Shown piece by piece: positions 12,001-36,000 of a stretch of 64,000 nucleotides of DNA. Made by a program: the position numbers. Source of the DNA: an uncultured Fibrobacterota bacterium (GTDB taxonomy: Bacteria > Fibrobacterota > Chitinivibrionia > Chitinivibrionales > FEN-1185); NCBI GenBank assembly GCA_963729895.1, contig CAVSQB010000009.1, forward strand, positions 32,001 to 96,000, in the 5' to 3' direction. The stretch's first letter is position 1; each line of letters opens with the position of its first letter.

Positions 12001-15000
12001 GTTCTGTTTACCGAGCATCGATTTCACCGAAACACCCGTGAGCGTCCCCAGCTTTCCCGTGAGCGCGCCCACATGGTCGGTGGTTGCGTCCACCACGAGC
12101 ATGATCACGGAATACTGGTCGCGCACATGCGGCACGCCCGTGCGCACGACGATCATGTCGCCGAATGCCGACAGGATCTTGTTGACTTCGTCCGCCCACT
12201 TCTTCCGGTCGTGGATTATTATTCCGACGAATCCGACGCGCTTCTCCATTGTTCCTCCTTCGTGCGAGACGCCCGACAAAAAAATCCCGCCTCCGGCTCC
12301 CCGTGAAGAGCCGAAATCGGGATTGCTATTTGAAATGGAATTGTTCTTTTCACCGGTAACCCTTGGCCTTAGAGCCGTGCTCCGCATCCTCAGGAAATTC
12401 TTGCTTGCGAGGTCTGCGCCTCAGAAGCATCACAGTGGGTTCAATCCAGGTTATATGTGACTGTTTTCACATATAATGCTTCATGCGCATACATGCATTC
12501 GCTAATAGTATACCACGTTTTTGGCATGAAGTCAATATTTATTGTGAAATATATGATATTAGTTTCCTGATCAATCGTAGAGCCGTGGCAACCTCCGGCA
12601 TCCTTTCCGCCTGTTAAAGATCCGTAATCACCGGCTTTCACATTTTCCTCTATGATCCGTGGCGCTGCTATTATGTGAAAAGTGTTACGACAAACTTGAC
12701 TGTCACGGTATGTTGACCTATATTACATCGGAATGAGAATTCAGCAACTTTTGTGAGAAGGGGAACATAATGATCAGCAACAAAAACTGCATTATTCGCC
12801 TCTCCCGCTACAAGAATGCCCTTGTCCGTTTCAAGACTCTGGGGTTCATCAAGATCTTTTCGGAGTATCTCGCCGATGCGGTGGGCGGAACTTCCGCCCA
12901 GGTACGCAAAGACTTTTCTCTCTTCGGAATTTCGGGAAACAAGCGCGGCGGGTACCAGATCGATGCGCTTATCGCGAAACTCAACGACATTCTTGGAAAA
13001 AACGAGATCCAGAAGGTGGTGCTTGTGGGAGCGGGCCAGCTCGGATCGGCCCTTATCCGGTACAACAGTTTTGAAAAGGAGGGCATCAAAATTGTCACGG
13101 CATTCGACATCGATCCAGCGAAGATCAATGCCAAGGGTCCCACGCCGATTCTGGGTATTGACGAAATGGCAAAGTACGTTCAGAAGAACGGCATCCGCAT
13201 CGCCATACTCACGGTTCCGGACGTTGCGGCCCAGCAGACCCTCGACATGCTTGTCAAAGCCGGAATAAAAGGCGTACTCAACTTTGCGCCCATTGAGCTG
13301 AAGGGTACCAGCGATTGCATCATCAACAACGTGAACCTTGCCGTGGAACTGGAGAATCTCATCTACTTTGTGAACGTGAGCGCCAAGGCTTCGGCATAGG
13401 GACATTCCATCCTGTCCATCCGCTCTTTTCGTCCGCAATGGGGAATGCCGCACCACCAAAGGCCACTTAGAGGCCTTTATCCTCAATTTCCTTGATCTGC
13501 GCATAGCTGAACACGGGCCCGTCCTTGCAGACGTATTTGCTTCCCATGTTGCACCTGCCGCATTTGCCGATGCCGCAACTCATCTTCCGTTCCTGGGACG
13601 TGATGATGGTCTCCGGCGAAAAACCGAGCGTCAGCAACGGCGGGATGGTGAATTTGAGCATGATGGGCGGTCCGCACACAATGCAGGAGGCATTTGCGGA
13701 TGATGGGGCGACCTGGCTCACCACCGCAGGGACAAAACCTTCGCGGCCTTTCCACGATGCGTCGCCTTTGTCGACGGTAATGTGGGTCTGAACATCTTTG
13801 CGCTGCTGCCATTGCCGGAGCTCCGGTTTGTACAGGAGCTCGCCCGGGCTGCGCGCGCCGTAGATAACGGTGATGGCGCCGAACTGCGTGCGAACGGAAT
13901 CATCCAGCAAATAACGGATGGTCGCCCGCAGCGTGGTGAAGGCAAATCCGCCGCCGACGATCACGACGTTCTTTCCGGTCAGGTCTTTGAGCGGAAAGCT
14001 GTTTCCCATCGGGCCGCGCAGGCCGACGATGTCGCCCTCCGACAGGTCGTGCAGGGCATTTGTCACCACGCCGGTCGGGTAGCGTTTTACCGTGAATTCA
14101 ACATACCCTTTGTCAAGTGGTGACGAGGCTATTCCTATGGGGATTTCGCCCGCGCCGGGCACCGACAGCATGGCAAACTGGCCGCACTCGTGGCTGAAGC
14201 CGTTGCCGTTGCAGAAAACAAGGCGGAACGTCTTAAGGTCTTTTTCGTCGTTTTCAACGACTATTGTCTCGATGCGCGCCTGCACCGGGACATAGGGATT
14301 GCCGCTCGTGCTCATGAATTCACCTTGGCTATGGTCTCTCTTATGTCAATATTGCTGGGGCAGTGCTCCACGCAGCGGCCGCACCCGACGCAAAACACGG
14401 CGCCGAAGTTCTCGGGAGCATACGAGAACTTGTGCATCACCCGCTGGCGCATGCGCTCGCCTTTTCTTGCACGCGGGTTATGGCCCGAGGCCTCGCGCGT
14501 AAACGAAGGGAACATGCACGCGTCGTGCAGCCGGATTCGCGCACTCGCGCTCCCCCGCTTTTCCTCGTACAAATCGAAACAATGACAGGTTGGGCACAAG
14601 AAGGTGCATGCGCCGCAGCTCAGGCACGTCTCGGCGAGCTCCTCCCAGAACCGGGAGTCGTTTCTCTTCTCCAAAGCTTTGGGGGCACCGCTCACGGCGA
14701 CTGTGGAAATCCGTTTGGCAGATTCCGACTCCTGCCTCTTCTTGTTCTGCAATTCATGCGCCGTCGGCGCACGGAATAAAGCGCTGTTCTTCTTGAGAAA
14801 GGCCTCGCCCTTTTTCGTTACCGGCTCAAACAGAAGCGACGCGGCCTGGCCGGCCGCCGCAATATCCGCCCCCGCTGTTGCGGACGGGCCGCAGCCCGTG
14901 GACATGCAGAAGCATGCCTCGCCGGGTTCGCTGCAGGCGAGGGAAATCACCAGCGCACTGTCCCTTCTGGCCTGATAATACGGATCCGTGTACGCGGCGT

Positions 15001-33000: not shown

Positions 33001-36000
33001 AGAGCCGAAACAACCGGGGCATGCGCCCAGTGCTGCGCGATATTGTCGAACATAAGCGGCAGCGGGCTCTGAATGCGCGGCGGCGGGGCTTCGCGAAGTT
33101 TCCCGTTGTCAAAGGAAATGCGTCCCAGTTTGCGGCCGATGTCAACGCCCGTGTTGATATATTCGCGTCCGTGAATCCCGTCGCGCGTCGGCCGCACGAT
33201 TTCCGACATGTCGGTCCACATCGAATCGAATCCCTCACCTGAAAAGGGGCCGCCATAGCCGCAGCCGGACACCGGAACGCCTCCGGTTTCGGCCTGGAAC
33301 CACGTGGTAAGCACTATATCGGGGTTGTAATAACTGTCGCCAAGGCGCTCGTATTCGGGATTCACCACTCTCGTGAGAATGTTCTTGGTGCAGTTCTGCA
33401 CGCAGGTAAGGCAGCCTTTGCACTGGTATATGTAATCGAGGTATCCTATTTCGTCGCGGAGCGCGTCGGCCTCGTCGCGATACAGGCCGTACACGCAGCC
33501 TTTCTTCACGCAGTTATGGCACCCGGAGCAGTCTTCTCGCCAGTCAACAATGCCGAGCTTGCCCTCCGGACGGATGCGCGGCGGCGTCGGCTGCGTTTGA
33601 ATGTGGTACTTGGCAGGCATGCCGGATTATCCCAATCTCGATTTCAGAGCGTTAAGCACGTCCATGGCCGCATCACTATCGTCGTCGCACACAATTTCAA
33701 AACCGCGCAATCCTTCGATGCTGCTGAGTTTTTCAATGGTTTCAAGCGCCATCTTTATCCCATCCGCGCGGGCGGCGCTTGAGTCCGGTTTTGAAGAAAG
33801 CCGGCTGAGCACATCTGCCGGCACCATCGGATTGGGCCGTTTTTCTACAAAGGCCTTTGCTTTTTCAACATCAGTGAGCACCTTGATTCCGGCAACAAAA
33901 GCCGCTTTATGGTGCAGCCCGCGATTGATAACTTCCTTCCACCACGTGGCGAAACGGTCAAGATCAAAGACCGGCTGGGTAACGATAAACTGCGCACCCA
34001 CAAAGATTTTTTGTGCAAGCCGGGGCAACTGCAATTCAAGCGGGTCGGCAAAAGGAGAAGCAACGGCCCCCAGACAATACGATACATGGCCATCGATATT
34101 TTCTTCGCCGACTATGGAAGCATTTTTTTCAAGGCCGTGCAGGCTTTGCAACAAAATTGTGGCGTCAATATCAAACACGTTCTTGGCCGCATGAAACGGA
34201 AGAAGCGTCTGATGCGTGCCGCTGGTGCAGAGGATATTGCGGATCCCGAGGGCACGCGCGCCGAGAAAATCGGAAATCAGGGCCGTCCGGTTGCGGTCGC
34301 GCGTGGTCATGTGCAGAATGGGTTCCACGTTTTCGGATGCGATAATCGCGGCCGCAGCGAGGGCCGACATTCTCACCCCGTCCCGGTTGTCGCTCACGCC
34401 AAGGGCGTGAACTCTGCCCGCAAACTGTTTCGCCATCTGCCGGACGCCGGCAGCGTCGGACGATTTCGGGGGCGAAATCTCGGCGGTAACGATTTGCTTT
34501 CCGGATTCGATCCGTTTCTGCAGGACGGTTTTTTCTTGTTGCATGGTAAACCTTCTTATGTATGCGCTTCCACGGCCGGGCCGCTCAGCCTCTTTGCCGC
34601 ATCGTAAATGATCTCTTTGAGCTGTCCGGGAGTGACGTTTTGAGGACAATGAACGAGCTCAGCACGGCCCGGATCGAGTCCGATCTCGGAAAGCAGCCGT
34701 TTTACCGTCTTGACCCTCATCTCGGAACGGTAATTGCCCTGCGAAAGCGTGCATTCTCCGAGAGCGCAGGTAATAATGCAGATTCCGCGAACCCCGCCCT
34801 CCAGGGCATGAAGCATGTATTGCGCGTCGATCTTGCCGCTGCATGGGATTTCTTTGATCCGGACATGCGTTCCGGCGTCCGTCCACTGGACCGGCATGAG
34901 TCCGGCGTGAGGTACGCAGTTTTTGCAGAGATAGATTGTGATGTCGGAAGAAGCTTGATGTGCCATTTCAACCATGAGCGATTCTGTTTACCGTCTTCTG
35001 CCGGCCGGCGAGCAGGATTTTTGAACGCCGGGAGCCATTTTTGAACGTGAAAATATAGTTCCTGGCGCAAAATGTGGCCAGAAAATGAATCGCGGAATTT
35101 ATGGGGAGAAATGAGGAGGAATCTTGGTCGCGGATTTCGGATTTTTTTATTGGCACGCTCATTCCCTAACCCAAGAGGCGGGGAATGAGCGGGCGGTGGG
35201 ATTCAAAAGGCACGCAGCTGCGCTCCGCATTTCGAAATCGGAAATGACGGGTCATTTCATTTGCATTTCATCCATCGAAGTGGCCGGGGTTTCGGACAGC
35301 TTGATTTTGAAATCGATCTTTTTGCCGTTCACGGCAACTGCCACCGCATAAGAACCAGGGGCCATTGAAACATTATTTCCATAATGAGTCGACTGTTCAC
35401 CCTTTCCAATGGCCTGCATCACAACGATCGGAACTTCTTTCGGTACCCCGGACGGATTTCCCTTTTCATCGAGAGGCCGGAAACTCATCTTCACTTTGGC
35501 GTTGGCAATCACGTTTCCAGTCTTTGCATTGAAAACATGAATGACCAGATGATGGTTCGGATGGGTGGCCGCATCGGGCATCACCGGTTTAGCTCCCGCC
35601 ACGATCATCATGCCTTCGGCTGCCTTGCCGGCCGAAACCTCTTGCTTTGTAAAGAACGGCTCCGCAGCCAGCACGTGCAATTCAATGCGCTCGCCGTTGA
35701 GGGTTGTGTCGATCTCAACATGACCGGCCTGCACGAGGCCGTGAGCAAGAAAAAGAGCAAAGACAAACCGGACAAAAATTGAGTACTCTCGCATGTAAAA
35801 CCTCCCTGTGGTTGAAAAGACGTTGCACGCTTGCCCTTTTGACCGGTGCGCGGGAATGCGCACGACCCAGGCTTATCGGCACCGCCCAAAGAATATAGCC
35901 TGCGAAATTGACATTGCCAACGGTTTTAGAAAATAGGTTTTCACCGCAGCTAAAGTTCCAGCAATTGCTATTCCAAAAGAAACAAGCCGCCCTGCTCGTT

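What a model noticed while it worked through the whole genome (the two positions that open the first line are those of the whole stretch)
13467..34975. A split glutamate synthase with a second, catalytically stripped FMN-domain subunit is built into a MvhD-MetF-HdrA opero [...]
The operon mvhD (g01086) - metF-like (g01085) - gltB2' (g01084) - gltB2 (g01083) - gltB1/3 (g01082) - hdrA/nuoE - nuoF - hdrL - mvhD - metV - hdrC - hdrA - mvhD - flx holds an archaeal-type split glutamate synthase. g01084 keeps the ferredoxin cysteines but lacks the FMN/2-oxoglutarate motifs of GltB2. The five-gene core is conserved across many anaerobic phyla and ties a GltB-type reaction to a MetF/Hdr electron-transfer module.
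Evidence so far: Best 80 of 576 GTDB loci of g01084: GltB2 next in 77, metF-like in 73, GltB1/3 in 65, mvhD in 63, hdrA in 51, same order and strand; glnA and amt in 2 each (104). Motifs GMS[FY]G, TGEGG, K..QGAK, G..GGTGA in 69-70 of 70 GltB2 and 0 of 79 g01084 orthologues; Fe-S motif in all (104). g01083 aligns to the GltB FMN domain (103); g01082 keeps a G-C-G-V nucleophile motif (23). Ordinary gltBD is also present (g03806-7). Searches 90, 98, 105, 106 found no description.
(Added by a program. Inside this text positions count along the whole contig: contig position 32,001 is position 1 of the stretch shown here. "Call 12" and the like, gene names such as g00115 and contig names such as C1 are that model's own, and its searches are not shown. 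The text may have been shortened before it was handed on; [...] marks where a part breaks off. The agent that wrote the report below was given it as the finding of a first reader that could run no searches.)

Follow-up and report, generated by a model that had tools for sequence, protein, structure and literature searches.

The report
Glutamate synthase with stand-in dead barrel
These genes encode a nitrogen-assimilating enzyme, glutamate synthase, built from separate pieces: a dead copy of its flavin subunit appears to take the place of the classical enzyme's central domain, and the enzyme is encoded beside electron-handling proteins of anaerobes that may power it in an undescribed, possibly energy-saving way.

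Summary
The 16-gene operon is real and widely conserved. g01083 and g01082 keep every glutamate synthase catalytic motif tested; g01084 keeps none. g01084 is not just stripped: it most likely replaces GltB's central domain. A natural g01084-g01083 fusion, modelled, superposes on central plus FMN domains of solved GltB (631 residues, 3.0 Å). The two window proteins score 0.86 as a complex (best control 0.00). 119 of 120 long homologues are fusions in that order. A tree favours an independent duplication. This MetF lacks the folate-binding Asp120 equivalent (53 of 69 lack it), and some loci drop metF or use a GlcD-like donor instead. MetV tracks this operon, not acetyl-CoA synthase. The window's 'hdrL' is an HdrA split by a NuoEFG cassette that alternates with a GltD cassette elsewhere, and the genome has no HdrB. 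Best reading: a glutamate synthase fed from NADH through a borrowed Moorella-type HdrA-MvhD-MetV(F) module. Bifurcation is feasible on paper, unshown. No paper found in nine searches. The scan noted this operon type, and the central-domain idea, before on other genomes.

The parts
34556..34975 (-). MvhD-like [2Fe-2S] adaptor (divergent, first gene of the operon)
   Evidence: Pfam FlpD E 2e-22; Cys 17, 20, 45, 70, 75; upstream of g01084 in 69 of 80 loci
33627..34544 (-). MetF-like flavoprotein of the MetFV type (305 aa from the likely ATG); Glu28 and Gln183 equivalents kept, Asp120 equivalent replaced by Thr
   Evidence: Pfam MTHFR E 4e-25; alignment to E. coli and human MTHFR; Asp at that column in 16 of 69
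32223..33620 (-). GltB2' (g01084): ferredoxin domain, invariant loop FDSMWTDMSEIVRPTRDG (131-148), dead FMN-type barrel, C-terminal 4-Cys motif; central-domain stand-in
   Evidence: no catalytic motif in 0 of 79; catalytic loop deleted as in the central domain; complex score 0.86 vs control 0.00; fusion model on GltB 451-1182
30645..32207 (-). GltB2 (g01083): ferredoxin domain plus active FMN/2-oxoglutarate synthase barrel with Cx2Cx2Cx5C cluster motif
   Evidence: E 1e-49 to A. brasilense GltB 857-1170; GMSFG, TGEGG, KYAQGAK, YSIED, GGTGA at 200, 227, 268, 312, 365
28021..30648 (-). GltB1/3 (g01082): class II glutamine amidotransferase after a 35-residue propeptide, fused to GXGXG beta-helix
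   Evidence: Pfam GATase_6 and GXGXG; five glutaminase motifs in 57 of 57 full-length orthologues
26836..27744 (-). N-terminal 135 residues of a double HdrA fused to NuoE
25097..26839 (-). NuoF/HydB-like FMN NADH-binding subunit, without the C-terminal 2x[4Fe-4S] domain
   Evidence: Pfam Complex1_51K and NADH_4Fe-4S, no further Fer4 hit; ends at CPAGVC
21775..25095 (-). NuoG N-terminal Fe-S domain fused to the remainder of the double HdrA (not HdrL); first FAD unit carries the E/K bifurcation signature, second has S/K
21122..21604 (-). MvhD
   Evidence: Pfam FlpD E 3e-50
20433..21125 (-). MetV (only copy in the genome)
   Evidence: Pfam PF12225 E 5e-33, NGPCGS motif
19853..20362 (-). HdrC, with no HdrB beside it or in the genome
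   Evidence: TIGR03290 E 4e-26; no CCG-domain match in a 96.7% complete genome
16820..19849 (-). second double HdrA; both FAD units carry the E/K signature
16266..16718 (-). MvhD
   Evidence: Pfam FlpD E 2e-55
15321..16235 (-). 4Fe-4S protein (Flx-type; the label is recalled)
   Evidence: Fer4 families
14312..15445 (-). AsrA/sulfhydrogenase-beta-like Fe-S protein (FlxB-type; label recalled)
13467..14315 (-). AsrB/PyrK-like FAD NAD(P)H oxidoreductase (FlxA-type; label recalled)

Best explanation
g01084, g01083 and g01082 form a glutamine-dependent glutamate synthase (Gln + 2-oxoglutarate + 2 electrons -> 2 Glu). g01082 hydrolyses glutamine. g01083 binds FMN and 2-oxoglutarate and does the chemistry. 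g01084 is a dead paralogue of g01083 that sits where the central domain sits in ordinary GltB: it packs its invariant N-terminal segment on the catalytic and Fe-S loops of g01083, probably lines the ammonia tunnel, and offers a ferredoxin domain as electron entry. Electrons most likely come from NADH through the NuoEFG cassette inserted in HdrA, then through MvhD and MetV, a module borrowed from the Moorella-type methylene-THF reductase. In this lineage MetF is probably reduced to a flavin-bearing adaptor. Shown here: motifs, gene order, fusions, predicted structure. Inferred: activity, direction, the electron path and any physical contact between the synthase and the Hdr module. My odds by step: synthase with central-domain stand-in about 0.85; fed by the co-encoded module about 0.65 given that.
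For: Catalytic motifs complete in g01083 (68-69 of 69) and g01082 (57 of 57), absent in g01084 (0 of 79). g01084 has lost the whole QGAK...YSIE loop, like the central domain, but keeps an invariant segment that aligns with the QVTNPPIDP loop of central domains and of single-gene GltB2; g01083 has lost that segment. 119 of the best 120 homologues of 864-2465 aa are g01084-g01083 fusions in that order with one active site. The AlphaFold2 model of one fusion (P0393, pTM 0.91) aligns to A. brasilense GltB 451-1182 over 631 residues, rmsd 3.0 Å, Z 36.4, against 296 residues for g01084 alone; central is 423-780 and synthase 781-1202 (PMC8097209). Complex score 0.86, best of 3 controls 0.00; the mark was reached by 116 of 157 solved complexes and 2 of 215 mismatched pairs; runs share at least 86% of contacts, partner pLDDT at least 83. 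Nitrogen genes flank 12 of 80 GTDB loci, acsB/cooS/fhs none; GS lies in or beside 8 of 79 metagenome loci. HdrA carries a GltD-like cassette in 23 loci or NuoEFG in 23, at one position. MetV is in 12 of 13 genomes with g01084 and 0 of 11 without, 8 of which have AcsB. mvhD-metV sits directly before g01084 with no metF in 5 metagenome loci, two near-identical pairs among them.
Against: No biochemistry or expression data. The complex and the fusion model may pass partly by likeness to solved GltB. The loop residues 141-150 are unordered in the fusion model and absent from the confident interface, so the tunnel role is not modelled. A profile of the g01084 loop hits single-gene GltB2 (E 3e-4) but not central domains directly; Thr-Asn of the QVTNP loop is Val-Arg here and the Met479 position is Ala/Ser/Cys. 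Ordinary GltB is present in this genome and in 35 of 50 operon genomes tested, so the enzyme is not needed for basic assimilation. The core occurs with no Hdr genes within 8-10 kb in several loci. HdrB with CCG motifs follows in 44 of 80 loci, which leaves an acceptor unexplained. metF is kept in 73 of 80 loci with Glu28 in 65 of 69. No nitrogen gene flanks this window's copy.
Confidence: 0.57

Rival explanations
1. Two separate enzymes share an operon: an active MetFV-Hdr-MvhD methylene-THF reductase, and a glutamate synthase (same three-gene core) that takes electrons from free ferredoxin or another carrier.
For: metF kept in 73 of 80 loci with Glu28 (65 of 69) and Gln183 (53 of 69) equivalents. 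In the phylum 9 of 13 genomes with g01084 have AcsB against 8 of 213 without (kin are not independent). The core stands alone in five Chloroflexota GTDB loci and many soil loci. MetFV contacts HdrA, HdrB and MvhD in Sporomusa pull-downs (PMC9430772, passages).
Against: The synthase genes sit between metF and metV/hdr and stay there across phyla. Asp120, called invariant and essential (PMC9900621, passages), is lost in 53 of 69. This genome has a second, E. coli-type metF. Eight AcsB genomes of the phylum have no MetV. AcsB is a strong hit in only 24 of 50 operon genomes.
Confidence: 0.22
2. Direct one-carbon to nitrogen coupling: MetFV oxidises methyl-THF and passes the electrons, which cannot reduce NAD+, to glutamate synthase.
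For: About -26 kJ/mol on paper (potentials partly recalled). The alternative fused donor is a GlcD-like 2-hydroxyacid dehydrogenase, also a donor near -200 mV (recalled). MetF with Asp120 sits in mvhD-metV-metF-core clusters with no hdr nearby, next to GS and carAB. A methyl-THF-oxidising MTHFR exists (PMC11868366, passages).
Against: The window's MetF lacks Asp120, which that enzyme keeps. metF is absent in L046 and five metagenome loci. More plausible for the Asp-bearing loci than for this one.
Confidence: 0.09
3. The core runs backwards or on another amine: glutamate oxidation, or N-methylglutamate synthesis as by MgsABC.
For: A second synthase is redundant with GltBD in 35 of 50 genomes. 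GDH flanks 3 of 80 loci. The g01084 loop has Arg-Pro..Asp-Gly like MgsC's RYPLEG.
Against: g01083 has TGEGG and YS[IV]ED like GltB, where MgsC has TGDGG and TGPDD; g01082 has HQRYPT where MgsA has HTRMAT. g01083 does not group with MgsC. No sarcosine-oxidase-like genes among the flanking genes scanned. amt, glnK, GS and NrpR neighbours point to assimilation.
Confidence: 0.08
4. g01084 is an independent enzyme or regulator with its own ligand, not a structural subunit.
For: It is a full barrel closer to the FMN domain than to the central domain by profile (E 6e-9 vs 0.003) and has invariant residues of its own (E357, H358, K361, C365).
Against: The FMN phosphate motif is gone in 0 of 79. Its invariant residues fall in the predicted interface with g01083. 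It is followed by or fused to g01083 in 77 of 80 loci and the other three end at contig edges.
Confidence: 0.04

Closest known systems
Bacterial glutamate synthase alpha subunit GltB (A. brasilense 1ea0/2vdc/6s6s; Synechocystis Fd-GltS 1ofd)
   Same: Same four functional parts (glutaminase with propeptide, dead barrel, FMN barrel, GXGXG helix); the dead and live barrels superpose on central plus FMN domains; catalytic residues kept.
   Different: Three genes instead of one, order dead-live-[GATase-GXGXG]; the dead barrel is complete and sister to its own live partner in the tree; both barrels carry ferredoxin domains; a four-Cys cluster motif replaces the three-Cys one; no stand-alone GltD.
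Single-gene split (archaeal-type) glutamate synthase GltB1/GltB2/GltB3 (e.g. loci L089, L106, L107)
   Same: Ferredoxin-fused FMN subunit with four-Cys cluster motif; NGxGGG-type amidotransferase.
   Different: There one GltB2 carries both the QVTNP loop and the catalytic motifs; here they are divided between two paralogues, and B1 and B3 are fused.
Type IV / 6S methylene-THF reductase MetFV-HdrABC-MvhD (Moorella thermoacetica, Sporomusa ovata) and the proposed NuoEFG-linked X type
   Same: MetF, MetV, MvhD, HdrC and a double HdrA with E/K signature; Moorella HdrA has the same GltD insert that 23 related loci have (PMC9430772); NuoEFG next to metFV was noted as an unstudied type (PMC8515935, section 13).
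   Different: Glutamate synthase genes lie between metF and metV/hdr; MetF lacks Asp120; no HdrB in this genome; NuoEFG is inserted inside HdrA. Neither paper mentions glutamate synthase in the searched passages.
N-methylglutamate synthase MgsABC (GlxBCD; loci L090, L091)
   Same: Split GATase, GXGXG and FMN subunits linked to folate C1 genes.
   Different: Different active-site motifs, no Fe-S or ferredoxin domains, gmaS and sarcosine-oxidase-like neighbours; separate branch of the tree.
FlxABCD-HdrABC of Desulfovibrio (title seen in a reference list; details recalled)
   Same: hdrC-hdrA-mvhD-flx genes at the operon end.
   Different: No HdrB and no DsrA above cut-off in the genome.

Membership tests
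Glutamate synthase (GltS) | Class II glutaminase: nucleophile Cys after propeptide, HxR, HNG, TD motifs | tested here: met
   57 of 57 full-length orthologues; residue roles recalled
Glutamate synthase (GltS) | Propeptide cleavage exposing Cys1 | not testable with these tools
   EGG|CGV resembles HDS|CGV of the genome's own GltB
Glutamate synthase (GltS) | FMN barrel with 2-oxoglutarate residues, Lys999 and Glu978 loop | tested here: met
   67-69 of 69 for each motif
Glutamate synthase (GltS) | Dead barrel beside the FMN barrel (central domain) | tested here: met
   as a separate gene; fusion model aligns to GltB 451-1182, 631 residues, 3.0 Å; predicted, not solved
Glutamate synthase (GltS) | GXGXG beta-helix | tested here: met
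   PF01493 above cut-off in g01082
Glutamate synthase (GltS) | Glutamine- and 2-oxoglutarate-dependent activity | not testable with these tools
   needs assay
Fused bacterial GltBD | Single 1500-aa alpha chain with three-Cys [3Fe-4S] motif and adjacent GltD | tested here: not met
   three genes, Cx2Cx2Cx5C, no GltD in the operon
GltB central domain (PF04898) by descent | Orthology to the central domain | tested here: inconclusive
   best tree joins g01084 with g01083 (99/99), but joining it with central domains is not rejected, p-AU 0.11
Single-gene split (archaeal-type) GltS | One GltB2 with both QVTNP loop and catalytic motifs; separate B1 and B3 | tested here: not met
   loop in 0 of 69 g01083 orthologues; B1-B3 fused
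N-methylglutamate synthase MgsABC | MgsC TGDGG/GPDD and MgsA HTRMAT motifs; gmaS and mgd neighbours | tested here: not met
   compared with two annotated mgs-type loci
Type IV (6S) MTHFR MetFV-HdrABC-MvhD | MetF catalytic Glu28 and Gln183 | tested here: met
   E22 and Q190
Type IV (6S) MTHFR MetFV-HdrABC-MvhD | MetF catalytic Asp120 | tested here: not met
   Thr110 by sequence alignment; Asp in 16 of 69; no structure of this MetF was modelled
Type IV (6S) MTHFR MetFV-HdrABC-MvhD | metV directly upstream of metF; HdrB present | tested here: not met
   metV lies 12.5 kb downstream; no CCG-domain protein in the genome
Type IV (6S) MTHFR MetFV-HdrABC-MvhD | HdrA with E/K bifurcation signature | tested here: met
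   three of four FAD units in the two HdrA
Flavin-based electron-bifurcating enzymes | Coupled reduction of a high- and a low-potential acceptor | not testable with these tools
   only feasibility computed

The most novel reading that the evidence does not exclude
An electron-bifurcating glutamate synthase. NADH enters through the cassette in HdrA; the HdrA flavin sends one branch through MvhD/MetV and the ferredoxin domain of g01084 to glutamate synthesis (about -66 mV) and the other to ferredoxin, so that nitrogen assimilation recovers energy. On paper this yields -14 to -30 kJ, where methylene-THF as acceptor yields -4 to +12 kJ. It would name a high-potential acceptor for a Moorella-type Hdr module, and the enzyme would have re-invented GltB's central domain by its own duplication, with split, half-fused and fully fused stages all still extant.
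Probability: 0.27. Interest if true: 0.9.

Novelty: new variant of a known kind. Interest (0 to 1): 0.7.

Why it matters
Glutamate synthase is the main route by which ammonia enters amino acids. This form occurs in anaerobes of about 15 phylum labels and has not been characterised in the literature I could search. It makes two open questions testable. First, the origin of the central domain, which one review leaves between duplication and independent origin (PMC8097209): here a dead duplicate holds that position as a separate, expressible protein that still has a full barrel. Second, the unknown second acceptor of Hdr-type MetFV complexes, and whether nitrogen assimilation can be coupled to electron bifurcation. 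It also warns that metF/metV in such operons should not be counted as Wood-Ljungdahl markers.

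Tried and rejected
Literature: nine full-text searches found no description of this operon or of the dead subunit; the library lacks most subscription papers, including the original GltS structure papers and Mock 2014, and I read no supplements. Passages of the ANME, Chloroflexi, D. autotrophicum, bifurcation-evolution, Hakuba and Desulfofundulus papers did not describe it. 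RNA runs: no RNA holder listed. NrpR box upstream: 13 of 63 with one mismatch, shuffle mean 8.4 and maximum 20, none exact; GlnR and Rex patterns at chance. A sigma-54 pattern was in 6 of 63 (shuffle maximum 4) but not on the right strand upstream of this operon. The shared His and the GMG..R ending first suggested that g01084 is the orthologue of the central domain; profile comparison and trees did not favour it. The tree left out 13 of 56 prepared rows (three with odd composition, the rest to save time) and holds no archaeal sequences by name. The loose Cys pattern also matches ferredoxin motifs, so I used the column counts. Replacement of GltBD was rejected as the general reason for the operon (35 of 50 genomes have both). 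A sulfate-reducer Flx-Hdr role was rejected for this genome (no HdrB, no DsrA over cut-off). Contact between the synthase and MvhD, MetV or MetF was not modelled; the one complex job went to g01083-g01084.

Full report
Observation. Sixteen ORFs run on the minus strand from 34975 to 13467. Pfam and NCBIfam give MvhD, MetF-like, two Glu_synthase proteins, a GATase-GXGXG protein, HdrA(N)-NuoE, NuoF, NuoG-HdrA, MvhD, MetV, HdrC, a double HdrA, MvhD and three Flx/Asr-like genes. The first five are coupled at 11, 6, 15 and -4 bases. A GTDB scan with g01084 gave 576 relatives, of which the tool kept the best 80. GltB2 follows in 76 and is fused in one more, metF precedes in 73, the GATase-GXGXG gene is in 69, mvhD precedes in 69 and an hdrA-type gene is in 51; most misses are contig ends. 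Seventy loci carry 15 phylum-level labels. The nearest named relatives are Fibrobacterota.

The live parts. g01083 aligns to the FMN domain of A. brasilense GltB (E 1e-49). Its orthologues keep G.S[FY]G, TGEGG, GGTGA and YS[IV]ED in 69 of 69, K..QGAK and the Lys999 motif in 68, the Arg957 equivalent in 67 (residue roles recalled). g01082 keeps the nucleophile motif after a 35-residue leader and four more glutaminase motifs in 57 of 57. Two annotated N-methylglutamate-type loci differ at these motifs. The chemistry is therefore most likely glutamate synthesis from glutamine.

The dead subunit. g01084 has none of these motifs, nor the FMN phosphate motif, in 0 of 79 orthologues. It has deleted the whole QGAK-to-YSIE loop, as GltB's central domain has. 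It keeps a segment PVSG..FDSMWTDMSEIVRPTRDG in 79 of 79. One seed pattern overlaps this segment, but it is also invariant at W135-I149 in 124 fusion proteins found otherwise and recurs in distant representatives. In a multiple alignment it lies on the QVTNPPIDP loop of single-gene GltB2 and of central domains; g01083 has lost it in 69 of 69. A profile of the segment hits single-gene GltB2 over its length (E 3e-4) but not central domains directly, so that homology is transitive. The ammonia tunnel of GltS is lined by the FMN and central domains, and Met479 of the central domain sits by the Fe-S cluster (PMC8097209, passages). That this loop itself gates the tunnel is recalled; a search for it found no paper.

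Structure and fusions. Of the best 120 of 508 homologues of 864-2465 aa, 119 are g01084-g01083 fusions in that order with one active site. An AlphaFold2 model of one (P0393, 60% identical to g01084; 124 sequences; pLDDT 86, pTM 0.91) aligns to A. brasilense GltB residues 451-1182 over 631 residues at 3.0 Å, Z 36.4, next unrelated fold Z 26.2. g01084 alone aligned 296 residues. So the dead barrel takes the place of the central domain. The two window proteins scored 0.86 as a complex against a best control of 0.00; 116 of 157 solved complexes and 2 of 215 mismatched pairs reached the mark; runs agree in at least 86% of contacts and partner pLDDT is at least 83. The interface puts g01084 115-139 on the GGTGA loop of g01083 and also includes the g01083 Fe-S loop and g01084 ferredoxin residues 68-86. 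Likeness to solved GltB may help both predictions. Residues 141-150 are unordered in these models, which lack the glutaminase subunit. Two proteins (P0247, 3016 aa; P0262, cut short) fuse a GlcD-like FAD enzyme, dead barrel, live barrel and amidotransferase in one chain.

Origin. In trees of the barrels g01084 and g01083 are sisters against single-gene GltB2, GltB FMN and central domains and MgsC (SH-aLRT 98; 99/99). Joining g01084 with central domains is not rejected (p-AU 0.11). Independent duplication is favoured, not shown. Duplication and decay is the textbook account of the central domain (PMC5011417, passages), left open in PMC8097209.

The electron side. The operon's double HdrA carries a cassette at one position: GltD-like in 23 loci, NuoE-NuoF-NuoG splitting the gene in 23, none in two full-length cases, among 51 loci with any hdrA. 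The window has the NuoEFG form. Moorella HdrA has the GltD form, and E/K residues mark bifurcating HdrA flavins (PMC9430772, passages); three of the four FAD units here have them. [quoted passage not shown] A NuoEFG-linked type was noted but not studied (PMC8515935, section 13). HdrB follows in 44 of 80 loci, but this 96.7% complete genome has no CCG protein, and two relatives have the same hdrC-hdrA-mvhD-flx tail without hdrB.

MetF. The window protein keeps Glu28 and Gln183 equivalents but has Thr at Asp120; Asp is present in 16 of 69, and in all 10 with metV adjacent. Asp120 is described as invariant and essential (PMC9900621, PMC11868366, passages). The genome has a second, E. coli-type metF, MetH, Fhs and CODH/ACS genes but no stand-alone AcsE that I could find. 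In 79 metagenome loci fetched with a GlcD-fusion query, 16 have the GlcD-like gene, 5 have mvhD-metV directly before g01084 without metF, and many soil loci have the three-gene core alone, 19 with a GltB2 lacking its ferredoxin domain. In the phylum (226 genomes at least 85% complete) g01084 is in 13 and AcsB in 17, with 9 shared. Among 24 genomes I chose from these, MetV is in 12 of 13 with g01084 and 0 of 11 without. AcsB is a strong hit in 24 of 50 operon genomes (50 of the 80 loci, completeness unknown). MetV thus follows the synthase, and MetF looks optional.

Physiology. amt, glnK, NrpR, GDH, GS or carAB flank 12 of 80 GTDB loci and acsB, cooS or fhs none. GS lies inside or beside 8 of 79 metagenome loci. 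Against a simple assimilation role, ordinary GltB is in 35 of 50 genomes; here gltBD sits with amt, glnK and GS on another contig, while this operon adjoins an [FeFe] hydrogenase cluster with rex. With recalled potentials the GOGAT couple is about -66 mV, enough to drive ferredoxin reduction from NADH by 14-30 kJ. That is feasibility only.

Verdict. A real, widespread, apparently undescribed variant of glutamate synthase. The central-domain stand-in is well supported by prediction; the wiring to HdrA-MvhD-MetV is likely; MetF chemistry and bifurcation are open. Earlier notes of this scan reported the operon on other genomes and one proposed the central-domain role; I had written that reading down before seeing it, and these notes are not evidence.

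Noticed in passing
window 1-2349 and L082 (G000 C9 24000-36000); window 6195-12387: rex, a kinase, and a trimeric [FeFe] hydrogenase whose beta subunit (1090 aa) has a GltD-like C-terminal extension, followed by hydE/G/F-type maturases, aspA and a TM1266 regulator directly downstream of the operon; a redox island.
   Followed up: partly
L083:9444-19175 (G000 C14): CODH/ACS cluster with AcsB fused to AcsD (1172 aa), two CooC-like genes and an unassigned 378-aa protein, but no AcsE; the genome's only pterin-binding hits are a DHPS and MetH. The long AcsB frame recurs in several Fibrobacterota genomes.
   Followed up: partly
P0247, P0262, P0144, P0148, P0154; L113-L129, L144, L147: A GlcD-like FAD oxidoreductase with an Fe-S domain is fused to or precedes the dead barrel, in some loci with glutamine synthetase inside the cluster: a candidate 2-hydroxyacid-driven glutamate synthase.
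   Followed up: partly
L163-L191 (soil metagenomes): Minimal three-gene core: GltB2 without ferredoxin domain and a dead barrel with one reduced Cys motif and no C-terminal cluster; host and electron donor unknown.
   Followed up: no
L038:3883-5565, L065, L066, L130, L134: A further, divergent 520-590 aa Glu_synthase-family protein lies near the operon with NrpR, GS or amt.
   Followed up: no
L026; L041: L026 holds two versions of the operon in tandem (Asp-bearing and Asp-less MetF); L041 has the gene order circularly permuted.
   Followed up: no
17 GTDB loci, e.g. L078:2648-3985: A cluster of HTH-containing proteins, among them a 430-445 aa XRE-cupin regulator (6 loci by strict match), and GAF sigma-54 activators (5 loci) recur beside the operon.
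   Followed up: no
window 35252-35863 (-): ORF of up to 203 aa just upstream on the same strand, with a hydrophobic leader and His/Met-rich stretches; no Pfam or NCBIfam hit.
   Followed up: no
L111:5196-6144 (G060): metF-like gene is in two pieces in a genome that lacks AcsB; decay or assembly error not distinguished.
   Followed up: no
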